Of a stretch of DNA of 64,000 nucleotides, positions 2,710 to 62,039 are shown one piece after another. Position 1 is the stretch's first letter, and each line of letters begins with the position of its first letter. The notes under the pieces are model-generated. The model was not told the origin of the DNA, ran no database searches, and saw nothing but the letters and a program-made list of their open reading frames with translations. This DNA comes from a virus. A program made the position numbers and the translations under genes. The DNA is taken from the IMG/VR virus record IMGVR_UViG_3300033153_003354, positions 1 to 64,000 of that record. One strand, 5' to 3'.

Positions 2710-3432
2710 ATGGAATTACCAGAGTGGTGGAAGCACAAGGAAAATTATGTGATTATGGATTGCTTAGAAGGCATGAAAGACATTCCTGATAACAGTGTGG
2801 ATTTAATATTAACTGATCCACCATTTAATGTTGGTATAGATTATGGTAAAAATACAAATGATGTTATGAATGATTCTGATTATTCATATTGGATAGAAAA
2901 AAGATTATTAGAATTTGAACGTATCATAAAAAATGGAAAACCAATAATAATATTTACTGGCGATAAAAAAATATATTCAATATTAAATGCAGTTAAAAAT
3001 ACCAATTTAATGTTTCATCATCATTTTTTTAAATGGAATAAACCATCTGGTCAACGAGGATTGTCTGGTTGGGTTTTATTTAATCGTACAGAATTAGCAT
3101 TATTATTAACAAAAGGAAAACCACAACAAAATATATTAAACAGAAAAATACTATATTCTGATACACTTATACATGAAAACACAAAACCAAACGATAAAGA
3201 TGCAGTTAATCATCCATGTAGAAGACCAACAAAATTATATTCACATATAATCAAAGGAATGACCAAGAAAAATGATATAATCCTAGACCCGTTCTTGGGT
3301 TCAGGTACTACACTTTTAGCATGTAAGGAAACCAATAGAATAGGGTTGGGATTTGAGATTAACCCAGAGTATGAATCCATTATTAGAGATAGGACAATAT
3401 CTAAATCTGAAACTATAGGAGATTATTTCTAG
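2710..3432 (+). CDS. N4/N6 DNA methyltransferase (beta class) MTase1
   Basis: TDPPF ... HPCRRP ... DPFLGSGTT. Confidence 0.92.
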   Translation: MELPEWWKHKENYVIMDCLEGMKDIPDNSVDLILTDPPFNVGIDYGKNTNDVMNDSDYSYWIEKRLLEFERIIKNGKPIIIFTGDKKIYSILNAVKNTNLMFHHHFFKWNKPSGQRGLSGWVLFNRTELALLLTKGKPQQNILNRKILYSDTLIHENTKPNDKDAVNHPCRRPTKLYSHIIKGMTKKNDIILDPFLGSGTTLLACKETNRIGLGFEINPEYESIIRDRTISKSETIGDYF

Positions 3433-3441
3433 GAGTATTTA

Positions 3442-4833
3442 ATGACAAACGAAACATCTTCCGTATGGCAAGATCTTGTGCCAACATATCATTATCCACC
3501 ATTACCAAGTGAACGACATTTGTATGGTAAACATTTAATAGAAGATTTTGAAGTAGTGTTTGGTAAAAAGGTATGGAATACCCCACATACTGATAAATTA
3601 GTATTGCATGTTGTATCTGGGCAACTTCAAGCAATGAAAAAAGTAAGACTTAATGTGTTAGATACACAACTTGATCTTCGGATTCATGGAACAGTGTTTC
3701 AAAGTTCAGGTAGTGGTAAGGGTAGGGCATTTAATGGTGCTGCTGAATTATGTCAATATTTAGATTTGAATTATCAACCAATCACAGAAATAACAGATGC
3801 TGCATTGATAGGATCATGGGAAAAAAATACAATCTATATTCCAAAAAAGGGAGAAAAAATAGTAAAAACATTATTGCCTGGTTGGTTACATCCATCACAA
3901 AACATACATATAATTGCAATGAATGAAGCCGAAGTTTTATTTTCAACAAAAGTTAGTCCACATGCAAAAAATACCATGACTTACTATCAGATAGCAATGA
4001 ATACAATGGGAACCAAAGATAATGAATTGGTGAAAAAACTCATCTCTGGTCCAGAACCAGTTGTTTGTAATCCAGAATTTTCGTTACTTTTAACTTCTTA
4101 TCTCCCAGAGAATTTACTTAAAGTCATTGTTGAGCGTGGATTTTTACAACGACAAATTAATGTTATCAATGATGTAACTTCTCAAGATCGTCTTGAAACA
4201 GCTCTTTATTCTGTGCATAATCTTGGGAAAAAACCAATAGGAAAATATTCATTGAAAGAAATAGGAGATAGGTTATTGGTGGTTAACCAGCACATTGAAA
4301 GCAACCCACACATTAATATTTCGGATGATGCAATAAATGGTATGGAGGTTGTTGTTAATGATATATTTAATCCACTTGATGAAGTATCTATATTTCCAAA
4401 AAAGAAATTGGAAGAATATGTTCATAGATATTTAGAACACACTTATAAAATTGCAACACATCACATGTTCTTTAGATTGGACAATACAATGAAATCCGAA
4501 GATGTTGCTTATGCAAAGAATTTCATAATTCCAATATGGAACAAAATAGTTTCATATATAGAAGATTCAGTTCAAGATAATCCAAAAGAACATGAAAAAA
4601 GAATAACAGAATATAGAATTATGAAAGAATGTTATGATGCTTTGGTAGCAGAAAAATTCACTACTGGATGGGTTCCATTACCAACACTTTCAAATTTATT
4701 GCAAAATCAATGGGATGTAAGTAGACCACTCACAGAAAAAAGAATAGAACGTGCAATAGAAGCAGGAATGTTTGAAAGAAAAAAGAAAGGACTTACTAAA
4801 TATGTTCATTTTCTTAAATTACCAAAGAAATGA
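3442..4833 (+). CDS. divergent MCM-like AAA+ ATPase, putative replicative helicase
   Basis: SSGSGKG Walker A, TDAALIGS (MCM-like), IAMNEAE Walker B variant, wHTH-like C-terminus; lies in the replication cluster. Confidence 0.55.
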   Translation: MTNETSSVWQDLVPTYHYPPLPSERHLYGKHLIEDFEVVFGKKVWNTPHTDKLVLHVVSGQLQAMKKVRLNVLDTQLDLRIHGTVFQSSGSGKGRAFNGAAELCQYLDLNYQPITEITDAALIGSWEKNTIYIPKKGEKIVKTLLPGWLHPSQNIHIIAMNEAEVLFSTKVSPHAKNTMTYYQIAMNTMGTKDNELVKKLISGPEPVVCNPEFSLLLTSYLPENLLKVIVERGFLQRQINVINDVTSQDRLETALYSVHNLGKKPIGKYSLKEIGDRLLVVNQHIESNPHINISDDAINGMEVVVNDIFNPLDEVSIFPKKKLEEYVHRYLEHTYKIATHHMFFRLDNTMKSEDVAYAKNFIIPIWNKIVSYIEDSVQDNPKEHEKRITEYRIMKECYDALVAEKFTTGWVPLPTLSNLLQNQWDVSRPLTEKRIERAIEAGMFERKKKGLTKYVHFLKLPKK

Positions 4834-7730: not shown

Positions 7731-8806
7731 GCTGGTACAGCATGATAGACACATTTTGGAATGAAACCCCAAGAGCAGTTGGATCACCATTCCAAAAAAT
7801 AGTTTGGTCCAAAGATGAATTGGATAAATTTATCAATGATTCTAATGGCCAAACTATTTGTTTTACTTCCCACAATTCTTATCCTAAAGTTGAAAGGGCA
7901 TTTGGAACACCATTAACCACGAATGTATCAAAGATTTTCATTGATCTTGATGATGAAAAGAAACCAGAAAACGCCTTGTTAGATTGTCGATATTTAGTAA
8001 AGTGGGCACAAAAAGAAGGACTTCCATTTGCTTCTGCATTTAGTGGAGGTAAAGGATTTCATTTTTATATTTTATTGGAACCACAAATTTATAATATCAA
8101 CACTGGTCTTGGTGAATATTTTAGAAACATCCAACAATGGGTGACAACAAAATTAAAATTAAGAACAGCAGATAAAAGAATCTTTGGTGATTCAAAACGA
8201 TTGTGTAGAATGTGGTATACTCAATATGCAAAAACCGAGAAAAAAACCAGAAAAATCATCATGGGAGATACAAAATGTGTTCCTCTAACACCTGGACAAA
8301 TCCTTCATTGGTCAATCAATGATATTATTGAATATTCAATAGAACCAGAGAAAATACAAGAAGAATTTCAACCAGCATATTCTGAAAAAACAGAATTGAA
8401 ATTACATGAATTTGCAAAGACGTTTGATATTAAGATCGAAACAGTAAGTCAAAGACAATATGTAAGAGAGGAAGAACAGTCAAAATATGTAAAACCATCC
8501 AATGATTACATAAAGAATTTGTTTCCTCGTAAATGTATGCACAACGAACTTCTTAAAGATAATCCAAATCATGATGCACGTTTTGCAGCAGTTGTTCATC
8601 TAAAATCCTTGGGATTTACTCCTGGGAAAATTTACAAGTTATTTTTATCTTTGAATTGGATCGATATAGGAAACACTGAAACAATGCGTTATCAAGTTAA
8701 TCACATTTATAATCGTGTTCCAGAATATAAATTGCCAACTTGTTATTGGATTAAAAAGAAAGGATTTTGTGTTGGTAAGGAATGCGAAAAATATTGGGAG
8801 GAATAA
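7727..8806 (+). CDS. archaeo-eukaryotic primase, PriS-PriL(C-terminal) fusion
   Basis: FIDLD, FSGGKGFH and RLCR motifs; C-terminal KCM...NHDARF...PTC...C...C Fe-S-like domain. Confidence 0.85.
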   Translation: MSWYSMIDTFWNETPRAVGSPFQKIVWSKDELDKFINDSNGQTICFTSHNSYPKVERAFGTPLTTNVSKIFIDLDDEKKPENALLDCRYLVKWAQKEGLPFASAFSGGKGFHFYILLEPQIYNINTGLGEYFRNIQQWVTTKLKLRTADKRIFGDSKRLCRMWYTQYAKTEKKTRKIIMGDTKCVPLTPGQILHWSINDIIEYSIEPEKIQEEFQPAYSEKTELKLHEFAKTFDIKIETVSQRQYVREEEQSKYVKPSNDYIKNLFPRKCMHNELLKDNPNHDARFAAVVHLKSLGFTPGKIYKLFLSLNWIDIGNTETMRYQVNHIYNRVPEYKLPTCYWIKKKGFCVGKECEKYWEE

Positions 8807-8808
8807 GA

Positions 8809-10893
8809 ATGAATAAATTACCAGAATGGTGGAATGATGATAAATCATATAAAATAATGAATTGTCTTGATGGGATGAAAGAATTACCTGATAATTGTAT
8901 AGATGCAATTGTAACTGATCCACCTTATTTTCTTGTTAACAATAGTGGTTTTGGTTTTATGGGAAAGAAATGGGATAGTTTAAATATTAGTAATGCTTAT
9001 AGTATAGTATGCAAATCAAACGAAATTGCAAAAACTGTGGTTCGATTTTTTATGTCGTGTCGAGCAGAATCAAATTTGGAAGAGGTAAATATTGTTCAAG
9101 AAAATGTCAATATGCATCTAAACCAAGCAAAAACAAAATCCATTGTGAATGTTCAGTGTGTGGAAAAAAATTCACACGATATAAAAGCCAAATCATTAGC
9201 AAATATCAATTCTGTTCACGGGATTGTTCTTACAAAGGTCGAAGTATTGGATATGTTGAAAGAGTCGTATCCAAACCATATGACTGTTATAGAAAACCAG
9301 AACGAAAATGTATTGTTTGCAGTACCAATTTCATTTATAGAAAAAAATCTCAAAAACACTGTAGCAGAACATGTTTTGAAATTTCCCATAGAGGGAATAT
9401 GCTCGGAAAAAGAAACCCATCTTTTATTGATGGAAGAAGTAAGGATAAAAAATGTTATCGGGGGGATGATTGGGAACATATTAGAAAACGAGTATATGAA
9501 CGAGATAATTATACCTGCCAATACTGTGGAAAACACTGTAAAAAAAAGGAAATACAGGCACATCACAAACGAAAATATTGTGAAACACAAGATAATTCAA
9601 TGGATAACCTTATTACTTTATGTAACAAATGTCACCCCAGAATCGAAGCAGGAATTTATACAATCTCTAATAGTACAATTCCACAAAAACTGGACAATTC
9701 AAGCAATTAGAGTGTTAAAACCAGGTGGTTATTTACTTTCATTTGCAGGGACACGAACACATCATCATATGACACAAGCTATAGAGGATGCTGGATTTGA
9801 AATCAGGGATATGATTTGCTGGGTGTATGGTTCAGGATTTCCTAAATCTCACAATATCGGAAAATCGGTTGATAAATTACAAGGGAATGAAAGAGAAATT
9901 GTTGGAGAAAAGATTAGAGGAAATGTTGAGAAAGCAAAACACGGAGTAACTTTTGCAGGAGCAGACGCAAATAAAAATAATAAATGTATTTTCGGATATG
10001 GGAAAGAAATTTTAACAAAAGGAGTAACACAATGGGAAGGATGGGGCACTGCGCTAAAACCCGCCATGGAACCTATAACGGTTGCAAGAAAACCACTTGG
10101 TGAGAAAACTGTTGCAAAGAATGTGCTGAAATGGGAAACTGGTGGAATTAATATTGATGGTTGTAGAGTTGAATATTTAAATAATGATGATAATAGAATA
10201 GGAAAAAACTATTCACATAAAGCTAAAAGTGGATTAGAAATAGGAAAAAATAAAAATAATTCATCTGGTGAAATACAACAATTACATAATACAAAAGGAA
10301 GATTCCCAGCCAACCTAATCCATGATGGAAGTGAAGAAGTTTTAGATTTATTTCCTGATACAAAAAGTGGTAGTGGGAATGGTAATGCATCAATTGGTGA
10401 ACCAGGAAACGTTACACCTTTAAGAAGGGGCAAATTAATTCCAAGAAATGATTCAGGTTCAGCATCACGATTTTTTTATTTAGCCAAAACATCAAAATCT
10501 GAAAGAAATGTTGGTTGTGAAAATCTTTATTGGTTAGATGGAAAATTAATAGAACACCATCTTTGGCAAACTCTAACAGATGAAAATGAACAACATAAAA
10601 ATGAAAAATCATGGAAACAACACAATGTATCAAATGGTAATATTCATCCAACAGTTAAACCACTGAAATTAATAGAATATCTTGTACGATTAGTAACACC
10701 ACCAAAAGGTGTTGTGTTAGATCCATTTTTGGGTAGTGGAACTACTATCGTTGCATGTCAAAACGAAGGATTTATTGGATTGGGTTTTGAAATGTCAGAT
10801 GAATATGCAGATATAATTGATTGCAGAATCAATAATAAAGAAATAACCAAAGATGAACAAATAGAAATACAATCCATGGATAAATTTTGGTGA
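8809..10893 (+). CDS. N4/N6 DNA methyltransferase MTase2 with ~230-aa insertion
   Basis: DPPY, RVLKPGG, YGSGFPKS, HPTVKP, DPFLGSGTT; likely start MNKLPEWW after GGAGG. Confidence 0.9.
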   Translation: MNKLPEWWNDDKSYKIMNCLDGMKELPDNCIDAIVTDPPYFLVNNSGFGFMGKKWDSLNISNAYSIVCKSNEIAKTVVRFFMSCRAESNLEEVNIVQENVNMHLNQAKTKSIVNVQCVEKNSHDIKAKSLANINSVHGIVLTKVEVLDMLKESYPNHMTVIENQNENVLFAVPISFIEKNLKNTVAEHVLKFPIEGICSEKETHLLLMEEVRIKNVIGGMIGNILENEYMNEIIIPANTVENTVKKRKYRHITNENIVKHKIIQWITLLLYVTNVTPESKQEFIQSLIVQFHKNWTIQAIRVLKPGGYLLSFAGTRTHHHMTQAIEDAGFEIRDMICWVYGSGFPKSHNIGKSVDKLQGNEREIVGEKIRGNVEKAKHGVTFAGADANKNNKCIFGYGKEILTKGVTQWEGWGTALKPAMEPITVARKPLGEKTVAKNVLKWETGGINIDGCRVEYLNNDDNRIGKNYSHKAKSGLEIGKNKNNSSGEIQQLHNTKGRFPANLIHDGSEEVLDLFPDTKSGSGNGNASIGEPGNVTPLRRGKLIPRNDSGSASRFFYLAKTSKSERNVGCENLYWLDGKLIEHHLWQTLTDENEQHKNEKSWKQHNVSNGNIHPTVKPLKLIEYLVRLVTPPKGVVLDPFLGSGTTIVACQNEGFIGLGFEMSDEYADIIDCRINNKEITKDEQIEIQSMDKFW
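9009..9710 (+). CDS. HNH endonuclease with N-terminal Zn-binding repeats, nested out of frame in MTase2
   Basis: Three CxxC...CSRxC repeats; RDNYTCQYCG...AHH...NSMDNLITLCNKCH. Confidence 0.88.
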   Translation: MQIKRNCKNCGSIFYVVSSRIKFGRGKYCSRKCQYASKPSKNKIHCECSVCGKKFTRYKSQIISKYQFCSRDCSYKGRSIGYVERVVSKPYDCYRKPERKCIVCSTNFIYRKKSQKHCSRTCFEISHRGNMLGKRNPSFIDGRSKDKKCYRGDDWEHIRKRVYERDNYTCQYCGKHCKKKEIQAHHKRKYCETQDNSMDNLITLCNKCHPRIEAGIYTISNSTIPQKLDNSSN

Positions 10894-49877: not shown

Positions 49878-49936
49878 ACTATATAAACTTTTTGGTTAAA
49901 ATGGGATAAAGTTTTAATACTTGTTATATATTACCA

Positions 49937-50612: not shown

Positions 50613-50750
50613 ATGGTATCATATATCAAAAGAGCAAGAAAAATAGGAGGATCCTTGGTTGTAACAATACCAATGGAAATAGCAGAAATATTAGAAATAA
50701 AAGATCGTGACTTTGTTAAAGTTGTATTGGAAAAGGTAAATGAAAAATGA
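50613..50750 (+). CDS. AbrB/MazE/SpoVT-family DNA-binding protein (45 aa)
   Basis: ARKIGGSLVVTIPMEIAEILEIK; TATA-like box upstream; ATGA overlap with tnpB. Confidence 0.8.
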   Translation: MVSYIKRARKIGGSLVVTIPMEIAEILEIKDRDFVKVVLEKVNEK

Positions 50751-51757
50751 TATTGACATTCAAGATTAGACATAACCGAGATTTCACTGATGAATTGGTA
50801 AAAGCCAAAAAGATAGCAGAATTTGGAATAAAAACAAAGGCTTTATCTTCTGCTGCTGTTAAACATATTGGGTTAAAATCTGCAATAGCATGTCAAATTT
50901 TACGTAAATATTCTAAAAATAAAAAATGTAAATCTGCATCAAACGTATTATTAACAATCCCTGGACAAGTTATAAAACACGATAAAGAAAAACAAACAAT
51001 ATGGATTGCTTGTTTAAAACTGAATTTGGATTATTATTTTCGTAATGATTTTGAAAAAATAAATCAAATTGAAATTAATGATAAATATGCATTTGTATCA
51101 ATAACAATACCAGATGAAAAACAAATAAAACCAGAGGGATATATTGGTGTAGATCTAAATACAACTGGTCATTCGGTTGTTATTGGAAATCCAGAAACAG
51201 GAAAGGTTGTCAAGATGGGTAAAAATGCTCATCATATTCATAAAAAATATAGTAAGATAAGAAAAAATTTACAGAAAAAAGGCAAATTTGGGAGATTGAA
51301 AAAACACAAAAATAAAGAAAATAGAATAATTAAAGATATGAATCATAAGATGAGTAGAAAAATTGTCAATATGGCAAATGAAAATAATAATGGTATAAAA
51401 TTGGAAGATTTAAAAGGAATAAAAAATAGAGTTAAATCATCAAAATCATTCAAATATTCTTTGAACAGTTGGTCATTTTATCAGTTACAGAAAATGATAG
51501 AATATAAAGCCAAGATGCTAGGAATACCAGTAATTTATATTGAACCACAATACACAAGTCAGTTGTGTTCAAGATGTGGTCTTATAGGTAACAGAAATGG
51601 TAAGAAATTTAAATGTCCAAGTTGTAACCATGTTGATAATGCCGATGTAAATGCTTCATTCAATATAGCACTACGTCCAGAAGGTATGTATCAATTCGAT
51701 GCAGACAGAGATGTATCGGAAGGGTTTAATGGTAATCCTAAAGAGGAAATGGTATGA
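50747..51757 (+). CDS. tnpB: TnpB RNA-guided nuclease (IS200/IS605 family)
   Basis: RuvC GVDL, LEDL, ADVNAS; Zn finger CSRC/CPSC; YTSQ. Confidence 0.93.
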   Translation: MILTFKIRHNRDFTDELVKAKKIAEFGIKTKALSSAAVKHIGLKSAIACQILRKYSKNKKCKSASNVLLTIPGQVIKHDKEKQTIWIACLKLNLDYYFRNDFEKINQIEINDKYAFVSITIPDEKQIKPEGYIGVDLNTTGHSVVIGNPETGKVVKMGKNAHHIHKKYSKIRKNLQKKGKFGRLKKHKNKENRIIKDMNHKMSRKIVNMANENNNGIKLEDLKGIKNRVKSSKSFKYSLNSWSFYQLQKMIEYKAKMLGIPVIYIEPQYTSQLCSRCGLIGNRNGKKFKCPSCNHVDNADVNASFNIALRPEGMYQFDADRDVSEGFNGNPKEEMV

Positions 51758-59683: not shown

Positions 59684-59898
59684 ATCAAGAAACTGGATGG
59701 AGCATCGAGGATATAACCTATGGTGGTATTGTATGGAGAGTTATAACATCAAATAACCAACCAAGAGGATTCATTTTTCGACCTACCAAAGATGTGCCTT
59801 TTGCATATCGACCAGGAAGTGAATACGAATTATTGCAAGAAGAAGATTTGATTGCTATATCCAAACTGTTTAAATTTGTTAATGGGATGATAAAATGA
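59665..59898 (+). CDS. hypothetical protein
   Basis: Overlaps its neighbours. Confidence 0.5.
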   Translation: MDMQHIDQETGWSIEDITYGGIVWRVITSNNQPRGFIFRPTKDVPFAYRPGSEYELLQEEDLIAISKLFKFVNGMIK

Positions 59899-62039
59899 AA
59901 AGTGAATATTTAATTGGTGATGCCAAAGATGTGTTGAAAACACTACCAGATAAACATTTTCAGTGTGTTGTTACAAGTCCTCCTTATTGGGGGTTGCGAT
60001 CATATTTGCCCGATGATGATGCAGAGAAAAAGAACGAACTTGGTACTGAACAAACACCAGAAGAATATGTTGCCAACCTAGTTGATGTTTTTCGTGAAGT
60101 AAAAAGGGTGTTACGTGACGATGGAAATGTTTGGTTGAACCTGGGCGATAGTTATGCTTCATCTGCTACTGGATCATTTAATGGAGGAGGATTCAAAGAT
60201 TCTTCTGCAAAATCGGGTGGTAGAAATTTATCTGGAGTAGAATCAAGTGGAAAAATGGATAAATTAAAAGCAAGTGGACTCAAACCAAAAGATTTGGTTG
60301 GAATCCCGTGGCGTGTCGCATTTGCACTTCAGCAGGACGGTTGGTGGTTACGCCAGGATATAATATGGTGTCTATCAGGAGGAACCTATCTATACGTCAA
60401 ATCACAGAAGGGAATCATGCCGATGACGGTGAAAGATTTATACCGACTCGATTTGACAAAATGTCAATTATGGAACGGTGATAAATGGACTAATATACTC
60501 GGTATGAACAAATCTAAACGAAAAGGCGATGAGTTGGAAATGGTTTTACGAAGCGGAGAAAGAATATCATGTACACCAAATCATAAATTCCCAACCGAAA
60601 GAGGAAATATAGAAGCATTGGAAATCGAAATTGGGGATGTAATTGAATCTGTTATGTTGCCCGATGGGAACACACCAGAATATATCAATGCTGAAATGGC
60701 ATGGTTTATTGGCATCTATTTGGCGGAAGGGTCTAAAAGCGGAAGTGCGTTGCAGATAGCGGGACATGTCAAAGAAAAAACTCGGTGGGAACGCATACAG
60801 CAAATGGTGAAGTATTATGGGGGCTCTTGTACCCGTACAATATCCGGCAATAAAATGGACATCCGGGTTTATGGTAGAATCATTCATGCTATCATAACTG
60901 AACATATTTCTGGAAGAATAGCAAAGAACAAAGGACTGTCTAATAAATGTTGGCAATACGATAACAAGTTTTTGGATAACTTACTAACTGGGTATCTGGA
61001 AGGTGACGGTCATTGGGACAAGGAAAATAAAAGGTGGCGACTCGGATTCACACGAAACTATAATCTTGAACGTGATTTGAGATCGTTGTCTGCAAGGCTG
61101 GGATATTCCATAACATTAAAACCCAACATATCGGAAAATACCGTAACAGGGAAAAAACACCCATCATTCAGAGGCGAAATTAGGAAAACCGTATCTAATC
61201 ACCACAATAATAAATCAAGAAATGAAGTGGTTGAAATTCGTAAAGCAAGATGTAGGTATGTGTATGACTTGGGTGTTGAGGATTACCCACATACATTTTC
61301 GTTGGCAAGTGGTATATTAACACACAACTCAAAGCCCAATCCTATGCCAGAAAGTGTTACCGACAGATGCACAAAATCCCACGAATACGTCTTTTTGTTG
61401 ACTAAATCGGCAAGATATTATTACGATTCTGATGCAATAAGGGAAAACCACGACCACCCATCAATAAATCATAAATCGGATAGAAAAACCACTGAACAAG
61501 AAAAATCGTTCATCGGAAAAGCACCAACAAATTTAGGTAGATGTGGTAACAACCCAAACGGCAGAAACAAACGCTCGGTGTGGACAATTAATACAAAACC
61601 GTATAAGGAAGCTCATTTCGCAGTATTTCCGCCAGAATTACCAGAACTGTGCATAAAAGCTGGAACAAGTGCCAAAGGACAATGCTCGAAATGTGGAAAT
61701 CCTTGGATTAGAGAAATTGAGAAAATACAAACCAACAAAAGCAACGAAAAAGGTATAACTGAAATGATAGAAAAAGGTGTTCCAAGACAAAAAGCAAATT
61801 TATATGTTACACAAAAAAGAGGAACAAATAAAACAATCGGATGGAAACCAACATGTGATTGCAATGCAAAAATCGTACCACAAATCGTTCTAGATCCCTT
61901 TGCCGGAAGTGGGACAACAATTATGGTTGCAAAGGAACTTGGCAGACATGGTATTGGAATTGATCTCAATGATAAATATCGTGAAATTGCTGTCCGAAGA
62001 TGTAATTTAGATGTTGAATCAGTGGAGGATTTCTTTTGA
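59895..62039 (+). CDS. N4/N6 DNA methyltransferase MTase4 containing an intein
   Basis: TSPPYWGLR, KPNPMPES, HFAVFP, DPFAGSGTT. Confidence 0.93.
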   Translation: MKSEYLIGDAKDVLKTLPDKHFQCVVTSPPYWGLRSYLPDDDAEKKNELGTEQTPEEYVANLVDVFREVKRVLRDDGNVWLNLGDSYASSATGSFNGGGFKDSSAKSGGRNLSGVESSGKMDKLKASGLKPKDLVGIPWRVAFALQQDGWWLRQDIIWCLSGGTYLYVKSQKGIMPMTVKDLYRLDLTKCQLWNGDKWTNILGMNKSKRKGDELEMVLRSGERISCTPNHKFPTERGNIEALEIEIGDVIESVMLPDGNTPEYINAEMAWFIGIYLAEGSKSGSALQIAGHVKEKTRWERIQQMVKYYGGSCTRTISGNKMDIRVYGRIIHAIITEHISGRIAKNKGLSNKCWQYDNKFLDNLLTGYLEGDGHWDKENKRWRLGFTRNYNLERDLRSLSARLGYSITLKPNISENTVTGKKHPSFRGEIRKTVSNHHNNKSRNEVVEIRKARCRYVYDLGVEDYPHTFSLASGILTHNSKPNPMPESVTDRCTKSHEYVFLLTKSARYYYDSDAIRENHDHPSINHKSDRKTTEQEKSFIGKAPTNLGRCGNNPNGRNKRSVWTINTKPYKEAHFAVFPPELPELCIKAGTSAKGQCSKCGNPWIREIEKIQTNKSNEKGITEMIEKGVPRQKANLYVTQKRGTNKTIGWKPTCDCNAKIVPQIVLDPFAGSGTTIMVAKELGRHGIGIDLNDKYREIAVRRCNLDVESVEDFF
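60369..61328 (+). mobile_element. intein with LAGLIDADG homing endonuclease (320 aa)
   Basis: Starts CLSGGT; block B TPNH; GIYLAEG and GYLEGDG; VYDL...ILTHN followed by Ser. Confidence 0.93.

What the first reader, a model, noticed from the sequence alone, without database searches (positions are those of the whole stretch)
8980..9710. Dual-frame selfish element: HNH endonuclease hidden inside a stop-free insertion in a DNA methyltransferase
Seen: MTase2 has ~230 extra codons between the family motifs FMGKKWD and F..W...RVLKPGG, which are normally close together. In the MTase frame the insert has no stop codon, no intein signature (no Cys1/HN-Ser junction) and looks like off-frame text. A different frame on the same strand (9009-9710) encodes a complete HNH nuclease with three Zn-binding repeats. 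In DNA this AT-rich, an unselected frame should hit a stop quickly, so both frames look selected. Inference: a homing element that avoids killing its host gene without intein splicing, by being tolerated as a protein loop or removed by RNA splicing or bypassing. From memory, it resembles the out-of-frame HNH 'ShiLan' insertion in actinobacteriophage methylases; that link needs verifying. An archaeal-virus case would extend the class.
Basis: partly seen in the sequence, partly recalled or inferred. Interest (0 to 1): 0.88.

Follow-up and report, generated by a model that had tools for sequence, protein, structure and literature searches.

The report
Hidden HNH nuclease inside methyltransferase gene
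A DNA-cutting enzyme gene lies in a shifted reading frame inside a virus's DNA-methylase gene, whose own frame stays open across it; this splicing-free way for a selfish gene to lodge in a host gene was so far described only in mycobacteriophages.

Summary
A beta-class N6/N4 DNA methyltransferase gene (8809-10893) carries about 693 extra bases (8977-9669) after FMGKKWD. These bases have no stop in the methylase frame. An intact HNH nuclease ORF (9009-9710, three zinc-ribbon repeats plus an HNH core) nearly fills them in the +2 frame.

Openness is not chance. All 5 DNA copies I could obtain (GC 0.31-0.51) are open, against 5.6-10.1 stops expected from the window's codon usage. Free-standing HNH relatives show 7-12 stops per 85-186 codons in that frame. 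In one copy the HNH has decayed but the methylase frame is still open.

I found no intron, intein or junction pairing. The likeliest mechanism is translation straight through the insertion as a loop at a naturally length-variable site, with the HNH made from its own, probably leaderless, start.

ShiLan gp65 belongs to the same methylase family and has the same architecture and relative frame, but a different site and a different HNH.

This is a new member of a kind published in 2023 and 2025, here in a probably archaeal tailed virus and in 62 protein clusters. Evidence for mobility is mixed.

The parts
8809..10893 (+). DNA methyltransferase gene (beta-class N6/N4, PF01555), 694 aa including the insertion. 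The likely start is ATG 8809, with GGGAGG at 8796-8801.
   Evidence: the database protein P0001 is 694 aa. All family-invariant residues are kept.
8809..8976 (+). Methylase part upstream of the insertion, ending in FMGKKWD. It holds the DPPY motif and the 7-residue FLVNNSG segment found only in filled alleles.
   Evidence: DPPYF[LI] occurs in 20 of 20 filled and 0 of 99 unfilled proteins.
8977..9669 (+). Insertion (about 693 nt, 231 codons), stop-free in the methylase frame and with no recognisable family in that frame.
   Evidence: Boundaries come from alignment to unfilled relatives. 0 stops. No Pfam match. No structural neighbour in the ESM Atlas, TM at most 0.30.
9009..9710 (+). HNH endonuclease ORF (233 aa) in the +2 frame. 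It has three CxxC...CSxxC zinc-ribbon repeats followed by an HNH core (EIQAHH...N...CNKCH). The stop TAG 9708-9710 overlaps the I-R codons of AIRVLKPGG.
8979..8986 (+). TTTAAATA box at -30 to -23 from the HNH ATG. It is a candidate archaeal TATA box for a leaderless HNH transcript (inference).
   Evidence: The spacing is identical in all 5 copies, which carry the A/T-rich 8-mers TTTAAATA, TTTAAATA, CTTAAATA, TTTATATG and TATTAAAA.
9000..9002 (+). Stop codon (TAG) in the HNH frame, two codons before the HNH ATG. It rules out an upstream methylase-HNH fusion by frameshift before this point.
   Evidence: A stop lies at the same place in all 5 copies.
9670..10893 (+). Methylase part downstream of the insertion (FHKNW...RVLKPGG, SGFPKS, GWGTALKP, HPTVKP, DPFLGSGTT). 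Its first 13 codons are overlapped by the HNH tail.

Best explanation
This is a ShiLan-type element. An HNH homing-endonuclease gene has lodged inside a viral PF01555 DNA methyltransferase gene, in the +2 frame, and nearly fills a 693-nt insertion.

The element is not removed. Ribosomes read the methylase frame straight through it, and selection keeps that frame free of stops. The product is a 694-aa methylase with about 230 extra residues in the linker between the catalytic DPPY loop and the next helix. That linker varies naturally in length across the family.

The HNH is made separately from its own ATG at 9009. It has no Shine-Dalgarno sequence, so it is probably translated from a leaderless transcript driven by a TATA-like box 30 nt upstream.

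By analogy with other homing endonucleases, the HNH would cut insertion-free alleles. Repair would then copy in the insertion together with a short upstream flank.

Shown: the architecture, the selection for an open host frame, an intact HNH and an intact set of methylase motifs, the existence of empty alleles, and the absence of recognisable intron or intein features.

Inferred: read-through translation, activity of the full-length methylase, leaderless expression of the HNH, cleavage of empty alleles, and current mobility.
For: (1) Architecture.

(2) The host frame is open in all 5 of 5 DNA copies (window, L081-L084; GC 0.31-0.51). Synonymous permutation of the HNH codons leaves the frame open in 49, 8, 115, 46 and 30 of 3000 trials. 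Drawing codons from the window's codon usage leaves it open in 0, 0, 2, 0 and 0 of 3000. Replacing 26-47% of degenerate codons, which is the observed synonymous divergence, leaves it open in 294 down to 14 of 5000 trials. Three free-standing HNH relatives have 7, 12 and 10 stops in that frame over 96, 186 and 85 codons.

(3) In L082 the HNH frame carries an insertion of about 8 codons with a stop, yet the methylase frame is still open.

(4) The HNH ORF occupies the insertion from 32 nt after its start to beyond its end, leaving no room for an intron core. Rfam shows no intron at E up to 10 in the window or E up to 1 in 4 relatives. Pairing between the two junctions is no better than in shuffles, z from -0.06 to 1.09. 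There are no intein features.

(5) The site tolerates length. Unfilled relatives have 23 to 100 aa there, some with in-frame zinc ribbons. ShiLan gp65 has about 85 aa there. The solved relative CcrM has 20 more residues there than P0014.

(6) All residues invariant across 23 filled and unfilled methylases are kept.

(7) There is no SD-like word before the HNH ATG in any of the 5 copies, whereas 37 of 50 long ORFs in the window have one. The ORFs without one include those just downstream of the ccaaaacc-TTTATATA boxes.

(8) The same gene family carries out-of-frame HNHs at two other sites, also in the +2 frame: ShiLan and a second, HNH_3-type insertion in L082.

(9) The window's methylase backbone resembles unfilled relatives. 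In variable segments it is 85%, 70% and 75% identical to unfilled proteins, against at most 31%, 27% and 47% to any filled one.
Against: There is no expression data of any kind, so read-through and separate HNH translation are inferred.

The protein-level sample of filled alleles is biased towards open frames, because it consists of called ORFs. Only the 4 extra DNA loci are free of that bias.

About 19 close HNH relatives (40-62% identity, P0121-P0139) were called as separate genes. I could not see their context. Some may sit in broken methylase genes, which would weaken the selection argument. P0290 and P0295 look truncated or derailed inside the insert.

The raised synonymous conservation inside the insert fits dual-frame constraint, but it equally fits a younger age.

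Mobility is not secure. On full-length columns, a single clade of filled alleles is not rejected (p-AU 0.84 with a quick tree; 0.37 with a careful tree).

The TATA-like box is also the codons S-L-N, and it is absent from the GIMGLW subgroup of filled proteins.
Confidence: 0.65

Rival explanations
1. The insertion is removed at the RNA level or skipped by the ribosome. This could be an unrecognised self-splicing intron, an archaeal endonuclease-spliced intron, or translational bypassing. The mature methylase would then lack the insert.
For: Homing HNH genes classically ride in group I introns (established knowledge, also stated in PMC11855218). The host may be archaeal, and archaea splice bulge-helix-bulge introns. 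No experiment excludes it.
Against: Selection for an open host frame has no purpose if the insert is removed. The HNH ORF fills the insertion, leaving 32 nt at the 5' side and none at the 3' side. No Rfam intron was found. No junction pairing beyond shuffles was found.
Confidence: 0.07
2. The element is no longer (or never was) a mobile parasite. It is a fixed, vertically inherited dual-coding module, and the HNH serves the virus. For example, it could act as a nuclease partnered with the methylase, like a restriction-modification pair nested in one locus, cutting unmodified host or rival DNA.
For: A single clade of filled alleles is not rejected on full-length columns. The 7-residue FLxNxxG segment is perfectly linked to the insert, in 20 of 20 filled against 0 of 99 unfilled proteins. 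The family is old and diverse, with 62 clusters at 50% identity, and the HNH is conserved (53-65% identity) more than the methylase core (37-51%). HNH restriction enzymes exist (established knowledge).
Against: On the C-terminal core, a single clade is rejected (log-likelihood lower by 116, p-AU 0.0035). The window's backbone matches unfilled relatives in its variable segments. The HNH has decayed in L082 while the methylase lives on, as expected for a dispensable parasite. P0134 shows the HNH with a methylase 5' remnant placed ahead of an intact methylase, which is a mobile-element footprint. Three zinc-ribbon repeats suit a long homing-type target.
Confidence: 0.15
3. The methylase-frame reading of the insert is itself a selected protein domain, born by overprinting on the HNH gene. 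It would contribute to methylase function rather than being inert filler.
For: Codons of identical residues are identical more often inside the insert (0.53-0.74 in the HNH frame, 0.68-0.79 in the methylase frame) than in the methylase core of the same pairs (0.33-0.52; Fisher p from 0.04 to 1.5e-10). Differences are nearly flat over codon positions.
Against: The conserved methylase-frame stretches (GIVLTK, IIQWITLLL) sit exactly over the conserved HNH motifs, so they need no selection of their own. The insert has no family or fold match. The Atlas model of the whole protein is poor (pLDDT 0.57). A younger age for the insert gives the same statistic.
Confidence: 0.1
4. The methylase gene is dead and its open frame across the insert is luck.
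For: The single window on its own gives only p of about 0.016 under the most conservative null (49 of 3000).
Against: 5 of 5 diverged copies are open. All invariant methylase residues are kept. 42 of 62 representative proteins with the insert are 500 aa or longer.
Confidence: 0.03

Closest known systems
ShiLan domain / hidden HNH endonuclease in Mycobacterium phage ShiLan gp65 and relatives (Gosselin et al. 2023, PMC9957025; Arsenault, Gosselin and Gogarten 2025, PMC11855218)
   Same: The host gene family is the same: gp65 aligns over DPPY, RVLKPGG, SGFPKS, GWGTALKP, EPIVVARKP and GRxP, and the window's core is 39-40% identical to mycobacteriophage methylases. In both, the insertion is stop-free in the host frame. 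In both, the HNH ORF sits in the third (+2) frame, starts a few codons into the insertion and stops at its end. Neither shows an intron or intein signature. Both have empty alleles.
   Different: The site differs: here after FMGKKWD, between motif IV and the RVLKPGG helix; in ShiLan inside ALKP|EPIVVARKP. The HNH differs: here PF01844 with three zinc-ribbon repeats; ShiLan's has an HNH_3-like core and was not hit at E 1e-5. The start codon is ATG here and GTG there. The DNA is AT-rich and the virus probably archaeal, not a GC-rich actinophage. The clear duplication of the downstream 11 residues at the insert's 5' end in ShiLan is at best faint here.
Pacc40 gp60 methylase insertion with an alternate-frame HNH-like ORF (PMC11855218, section 3.6)
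   Same: An out-of-frame DNA-binding or HNH-like ORF inside a stop-free insertion in a phage methylase. Related free-standing HNH genes lie just upstream of uninvaded methylases. Compare P0134 here, where the HNH precedes an intact methylase.
   Different: Different methylase pham and site. Its HNH assignment is uncertain according to the authors. I did not compare the sequences.
Inteins whose homing endonuclease is encoded out of frame (frame 3) or antisense (bioRxiv 10.1101/2025.01.02.630785, passages read)
   Same: The host-frame text is kept open over a nuclease ORF read in another frame, again frame 3.
   Different: Those elements have intein splicing domains and are removed from the protein. 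This insert has none.
Free-standing and intron-borne phage HNH homing endonucleases (I-HmuI, T4 Mob/Seg type 'intronless homing'; recalled knowledge, I-HmuI also cited in PMC11855218)
   Same: An HNH core with modular DNA-binding repeats. Presumed spread by cleavage of the empty allele with co-conversion of flanks.
   Different: Those genes lie between genes or in spliced introns. This one lies inside a coding sequence that is read through.

Membership tests
ShiLan-type hidden (out-of-frame) HNH insertion | Insertion inside a DNA methylase gene that is absent from close homologues | tested here: met
   20 filled against 99 unfilled among 119 scored hits. Boundaries.
ShiLan-type hidden (out-of-frame) HNH insertion | No stop codon in the host frame across the insertion | tested here: met
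   0 stops in 5 of 5 DNA copies.
ShiLan-type hidden (out-of-frame) HNH insertion | HNH ORF on the same strand in the third frame, starting a few codons into the insertion and ending at its 3' end | tested here: met
   ATG 9009 lies 32 nt into the insert and the stop is at 9708-9710. ShiLan's ORF is in frame +2 as well.
ShiLan-type hidden (out-of-frame) HNH insertion | No detectable intron or intein machinery | tested here: met
   Rfam, junction pairing, Pfam and residue checks.
ShiLan-type hidden (out-of-frame) HNH insertion | Disjunct distribution: filled methylases do not form one clade | tested here: inconclusive
   C-terminal core: 9 changes, p-AU 0.0035. Full-length columns: 3 changes, p-AU 0.37, and quick tree p-AU 0.84. 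The window's backbone is nearest to unfilled relatives.
ShiLan-type hidden (out-of-frame) HNH insertion | Homology to the ShiLan insert itself (same site, same HNH) | tested here: not met
   Different site. ShiLan is not among 57 phage records hit by the HNH at E 1e-5. It is therefore a member by architecture and host family, not by descent of the insert.
Intein | Nucleophile (C/S/T) at the first residue, Hint splicing blocks, C-terminal HN followed by C/S/T | tested here: not met
   The first residue is S in 42 but G in 23 of 65 relatives. 0 of 20 filled proteins have HN[CST]. No Pfam Hint or Intein family at E 0.01.
Group I / group II intron | Conserved catalytic RNA core flanking or surrounding the ORF | tested here: not met
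   No Rfam intron match. Only 32 nt of the insertion lie outside the HNH ORF.
Archaeal bulge-helix-bulge intron | The two splice junctions pair into a helix with two 3-nt bulges | tested here: inconclusive
   Junction-to-junction duplex energy is no better than in shuffles in 5 of 5 copies. No dedicated motif search was run.
HNH endonuclease (PF01844) | Beta-beta-alpha-metal core with H...N...H and CxxC pairs | tested here: met
   Pfam 3.1e-7 above the cut-off. H185, H186, N196, N200, H209 and C170/C173/C205/C208 are invariant in 21 sequences. Catalysis was not tested.
N6_N4 DNA methyltransferase (PF01555, beta class) | DPPY motif ahead of the FxGxG (DPFxGSGTT) motif, and family-invariant residues | tested here: met
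   Pfam 3.9e-33. Invariant columns are kept. Solved relatives include CcrM, DpnA, RsrI and MboIIA. Activity was not tested.

The most novel reading that the evidence does not exclude
Reading-frame-transparent insertion may be a general third lifestyle of homing endonuclease genes, beside introns and inteins. It would be widespread in PF01555 methylases of both bacterial and archaeal viruses, at three or more sites. It would always use the +2 frame because that arrangement is the easiest to keep stop-free. The read-through polypeptide, first tolerated as filler, would then come under selection of its own, giving birth to a methylase domain by overprinting.
Probability: 0.2. Interest if true: 0.8.

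Novelty: new member of a known kind. Interest (0 to 1): 0.55.

Why it matters
Homing endonuclease genes are thought to survive inside essential or useful genes only by hiding in self-splicing introns or inteins. The ShiLan papers proposed a third way, from GC-rich mycobacteriophage sequences in which open frames are cheap.

This locus shows the same trick in AT-rich DNA, where an open off-frame is costly. That allowed a direct statistical demonstration that the host frame is kept open by selection, and that it stays open after the nuclease decays.

It also shows that one methylase family carries such elements at three or more sites, and in a virus whose replication genes point to archaea.

It offers a compact test case for three questions. 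How much foreign polypeptide can an enzyme loop bear? How is an internal overlapping gene expressed? How do overlapping genes arise? Practically, annotation pipelines will miss these nucleases and will mis-size the methylases.

Tried and rejected
Intein: rejected.

Group I or II intron: no Rfam match in the window or in L081-L084.

Junction pairing of the bulge-helix-bulge kind: duplex energies no better than in shuffles.

Direct or inverted repeats at the junctions: only short chance-level matches.

-1 frameshift fusion of the methylase N-terminus to the HNH: an HNH-frame stop lies two codons before the ATG in 5 of 5 copies. I saw no X_XXY_YYZ heptamer by eye in the first 30 nt. This was not searched systematically.

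The long match spans in viral loci L012, L015, L016, L025, L037, L042, L044, L045, L047, L054, L065 and L073 proved to be tandem methylase genes, not insertions. None of the 80 viral loci holds this insert.

Scans that found nothing useful:
- HNH as a single query in viral contigs.
- A4 and A5 in genome contigs.
- A4 and A5 in viral contigs gave only the L083 contig again, plus distant HNHs.
- A7 in viral contigs.

Public sequencing runs: none was listed and no RNA holder was listed.

The word-index search with the insert region found only 5 proteins. The exhaustive search found 62.

The FastTree result of at least 4 changes and the quick tree were superseded by the careful trees.

The idea that the +2 frame is intrinsically poorer in stops is not borne out by the free-standing controls (7 vs 7, 12 vs 15, 10 vs 12 stops). 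The 'frame rule' rests on 3 of 3 elements only.

Supplements, and the GitHub repository of PMC11855218, which lists further similar elements 'in other phages and prokaryotes', could not be seen. They may already include relatives of this family.
Full report
WHAT IS THERE. The window holds a 703-codon open frame at 8782-10893 and, on the same strand, a 233-codon ORF at 9009-9710. The long frame is a PF01555 N6/N4 DNA methyltransferase (3.9e-33). Its Pfam match resumes only at residue 293. PHROGs gives DNA methyltransferase at 6.8e-59. The real start is probably ATG 8809. It lies 2 nt after the stop of the upstream gene, GGGAGG sits 7 nt before it, and the database protein identical to it has 694 aa. 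The short ORF is an HNH endonuclease (Pfam 3.1e-7; phrog_1271 3.7e-27). The HNH frame is +2 (= -1) relative to the methylase frame.

BOUNDARIES AND EMPTY ALLELES. A search of 5.8 billion proteins returned two classes among its 120 best hits. In 99 of the 119 that could be scored, DPPY and RVLKPGG are mostly 23-25 residues apart, reaching 100 in a minority. In 20 they are 250-270 apart. Alignment places the extra 693 nt after FMGKKWD (8977) and before FHKNW (about 9669). The HNH ATG lies 32 nt into the insertion. The HNH stop overlaps the I-R codons of AIRVLKPGG, so the nuclease ORF fills the insertion and runs 13 codons into conserved methylase sequence. An exhaustive HMMER scan of 1.84 billion cluster representatives with the methylase-frame insert found 62 proteins at E up to 0.001, 44 at up to 1e-10 and 19 at up to 1e-30. 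Of the 62, 42 are 500 aa or longer and 20 are shorter, being fragments or possibly broken genes. All 20 filled proteins of the first search, and none of the 99 unfilled ones, carry an extra FLxNxxG after DPPY.

IS THE OPEN FRAME MORE THAN CHANCE? I therefore found DNA of relatives by a pattern scan of JGI metagenomes with an alignment of the insert. Of 220 pattern matches, 4 were confirmed as loci L081-L084, with GC 0.32-0.51. In all 4 and in the window the methylase frame is open across the insert.

I counted stops in the methylase frame over the HNH ORF. None were observed in any of the five. Permuting synonymous HNH codons gives means of 1.2-3.2 stops and an open frame in 49, 8, 115, 46 and 30 of 3000 trials. 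Drawing codons from the window's usage gives means of 5.6-10.1 and an open frame in 0, 0, 2, 0 and 0 of 3000 trials. The third frame has 17-26 stops. Starting from the window's sequence, replacing 26-47% of degenerate codons (the range of synonymous difference seen between copies) leaves the frame open in 294, 86, 53 and 14 of 5000 trials. Three free-standing HNH relatives of similar GC have 7, 12 and 10 stops in that frame over 96, 186 and 85 codons. So the host frame is kept open by selection.

A telling case is L082. Its HNH frame has gained about 8 codons that include a stop, so the nuclease is broken. The methylase frame runs on.

BOTH PROTEINS LOOK FUNCTIONAL. The four intact embedded HNHs are 53-65% identical and share 94 invariant columns, including every cysteine of the three CxxC...CSxxC repeats and the HNH core. 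In a 21-sequence alignment with database relatives, the cysteines of the second and third repeats and the whole HNH core stay invariant or at least 90% conserved. The methylase keeps every residue that is invariant across 23 filled and unfilled relatives.

WHAT IT IS NOT.
- Not an intein. The methylase-frame insert matches no Pfam family. It begins with Gly in 23 of 65 relatives. It never ends in HN followed by C, S or T (0 of 20).
- Not a recognisable intron. Rfam gives no intron match in the window at E up to 10 or in L081-L084 at E up to 1. Only 32 nt of the insertion lie outside the ORF.
- No bulge-helix-bulge support. The two junctions pair no better than shuffled sequence, z from -0.06 to 1.09 in 5 of 5 copies.
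- No fusion by frameshift before the HNH start. A stop in the HNH frame sits two codons before the ATG in all five copies.

WHY READ-THROUGH IS PLAUSIBLE. The insertion site is a natural length-variable linker. Unfilled relatives have 23 to 100 residues there, several with in-frame zinc ribbons (P0077, P0089, P0120). ShiLan gp65 has about 85 residues there. The solved relative CcrM (6PBD) has 20 more residues than P0014 exactly there. The ESM Atlas holds a model of this very protein with pTM 0.58 and pLDDT 0.57, and the insert has no structural neighbour above TM 0.30. That fits filler rather than a known domain.

HOW THE HNH MIGHT BE MADE (inference). No Shine-Dalgarno-like word precedes its ATG in any copy. 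By contrast, 37 of 50 long ORFs in the window have one. An A/T-rich 8-mer occupies -30 to -23 in all five copies at fixed spacing. It is TTTAAATA in the window and L082, CTTAAATA in the GC-rich L083, TTTATATG in L084 and TATTAAAA in L081. The virus's own intergenic regions show ccaaaacc-TTTATATA-gta boxes 35-40 nt before ATGs that lack an SD (portal, and ORFs at 49887 and 53325). This is the pattern of archaeal BRE/TATA promoters with short or absent leaders. A leaderless HNH transcript starting at 9009 is thus a concrete, testable guess. The box is also the codons S-L-N, and it is missing from one subgroup of filled proteins.

HOST. The record is an 81,382-bp IMG/VR virus contig, estimated 60% complete. 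Its family-B polymerase and RFC small subunit hit haloarchaeal tailed viruses best (29% identity, E 1e-88; 35% identity, E 9e-55, against 1e-19 for T4-like clamp loaders). An XPF/ERCC4-HhH nuclease follows the methylase. The portal is nearest to Bacillus and Geobacillus phages. An archaeal host is likely, I would say two in three, but not shown.

MOBILITY. The evidence is mixed.
- For movement: on the C-terminal core (369 columns, careful IQ-TREE) the filled alleles need 9 changes, and a single clade is rejected (log-likelihood lower by 116, p-AU 0.0035). In 40-column windows, the window's methylase is 85%, 70% and 75% identical to unfilled proteins in its variable segments, against at most 31%, 27% and 47% to any filled one. 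The HNH is more conserved between copies (53-65%) than the methylase core (37-51%). P0134 shows a methylase 5' remnant fused in frame to the HNH, followed by an intact methylase start.
- Against: on full-length columns (427) the careful tree needs only 3 changes and a single clade is not rejected (p-AU 0.37; quick tree 0.84).
- The rows were 20 filled and 26 unfilled proteins, chosen by me from the 120. L084 and the rest were left out.

DUAL-FRAME CONSTRAINT. Among codons of identical residues, identical codons make up 0.53-0.74 in the HNH frame and 0.68-0.79 in the methylase frame of the insert. In the methylase core of the same six pairs they make up 0.33-0.52 (Fisher p from 0.04 to 1.5e-10). 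Differences are nearly flat over codon positions. This is what overlap predicts, but a younger insert would look the same. The conserved methylase-frame stretches lie over conserved HNH motifs. I therefore claim selection against stops, not selection on the filler's residues.

COMPARISON WITH THE KNOWN. For PMC11855218 I read the abstract, introduction, results, discussion, figure legends and tables. It describes the 202-aa ShiLan domain of mycobacteriophage methylases. That domain is stop-free in the host frame and encodes a 195-aa HNH in the third frame, from a GTG 18 nt in to a TAA at the end. It has no detectable intron or intein, and nothing was tested at the bench. For PMC9957025 I read passages. 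It reports the domain's disjunct distribution and an AU test rejecting a clade.

I fetched ShiLan gp65 (accession from PMC10453261; locus L093) and aligned it. It is the same methylase family. The hidden HNH is again in frame +2. The insertion sits inside ALKP|EPIVVARKP, not after FMGKKWD. The HNH is of another type, and ShiLan was not hit by this HNH at E 1e-5.

L082 carries, besides the element studied here, a second stop-free insertion between IDG.R and GRFPAN. It holds an HNH_3 ORF (Pfam 5.7e-14), also in frame +2. Thus one methylase family hosts such elements at three sites.

A preprint reports inteins with frame-3 nucleases (passages read). Full-text searches for 'ShiLan domain', 'hidden HNH' and 'out-of-frame HNH' returned 3 papers, all on actinophages. 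A broader search added that preprint and a cyanobacterial dnaX intein preprint, of which I saw the listing only. I found no report from an archaeal virus in these searches. The 2025 paper's repository of further examples was not visible to me.

VERDICT. The finding is real and is correctly read by the first stage. It is a new member of a kind published in 2023 and 2025, in the same host gene family. The site, the nuclease and the probable host domain are new. It comes with statistical evidence, not given in the parts of those papers that I read, that the host frame is held open by selection. The mechanism (read-through loop plus separately expressed HNH) is the best-supported reading at about 0.65. 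It remains untested.

Noticed in passing
L082:1911-2285 (+), inside the methylase ORF L082:490-2670: A second, unrelated out-of-frame nuclease sits in the same gene. It is an HNH_3 ORF (Pfam 5.7e-14) in frame +2, inside a stop-free insertion of about 145 codons between IDG.R and GRFPAN. Under synonymous permutation 899 of 3000 trials stay open, so this one case alone is not significant.
   Followed up: partly
window 59895-62036 (+): Another PF01555 methylase (714 aa, 5.4e-43) is split into three Pfam stretches. It has an Intein_splicing match (1.8e-8; 34.8 bits, just under the 35.8 cut-off). The methylases of this virus seem to collect selfish inserts.
   Followed up: no
protein P0134 (324 aa): A degenerate methylase N-terminus (through ...VVTDYF..KKWD) is fused in frame to the HNH. 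It is followed by a fresh, intact methylase start (LPLNQIILGDC...DPPY). This looks like a footprint of the HNH moving together with its 5' flank.
   Followed up: partly
proteins P0006, P0007, P0008, P0012, P0015, P0017, P0024, P0036, P0059, P0062, P0073, P0092: The stretch between SRFF and HPTVKP is 156-348 aa instead of about 45-55 in 12 of the 120 hits. This is a further insertion hot spot, whose DNA I could not inspect for hidden ORFs.
   Followed up: no
window 47473, 47506 and 49887 (- strand), 53325 (+ strand): Repeated ccaaaacc/ccaaaaag-TTTATATA-gta boxes lie 35-40 nt before ATGs that lack a Shine-Dalgarno word. They look like archaeal BRE/TATA promoters.
   Followed up: partly
phage records (Brucella phages about 3383-3721; Gordonia phage Clown 2769-3371; Synechococcus phage S-EIVl 55032-55520): HNH matches lie under features annotated as terminase large subunit. 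These may be further nucleases embedded in or fused to host genes.
   Followed up: no
proteins P0077, P0089, P0120 and ShiLan gp65: In-frame zinc-ribbon-like inserts (C..C...C.C) of 55-85 aa occupy the very linker where the window's element sits.
   Followed up: no
window 50747-51754 (+): A TnpB/Cas12f-like protein (Cas12f1-like_TNB, 9.5e-26) is encoded in the virus genome.
   Followed up: no
L081:3709-3821: A long AT-rich hairpin at the end of the contig matches several miRNA precursor models below their gathering scores. It is probably a terminal or intergenic palindrome.
   Followed up: no
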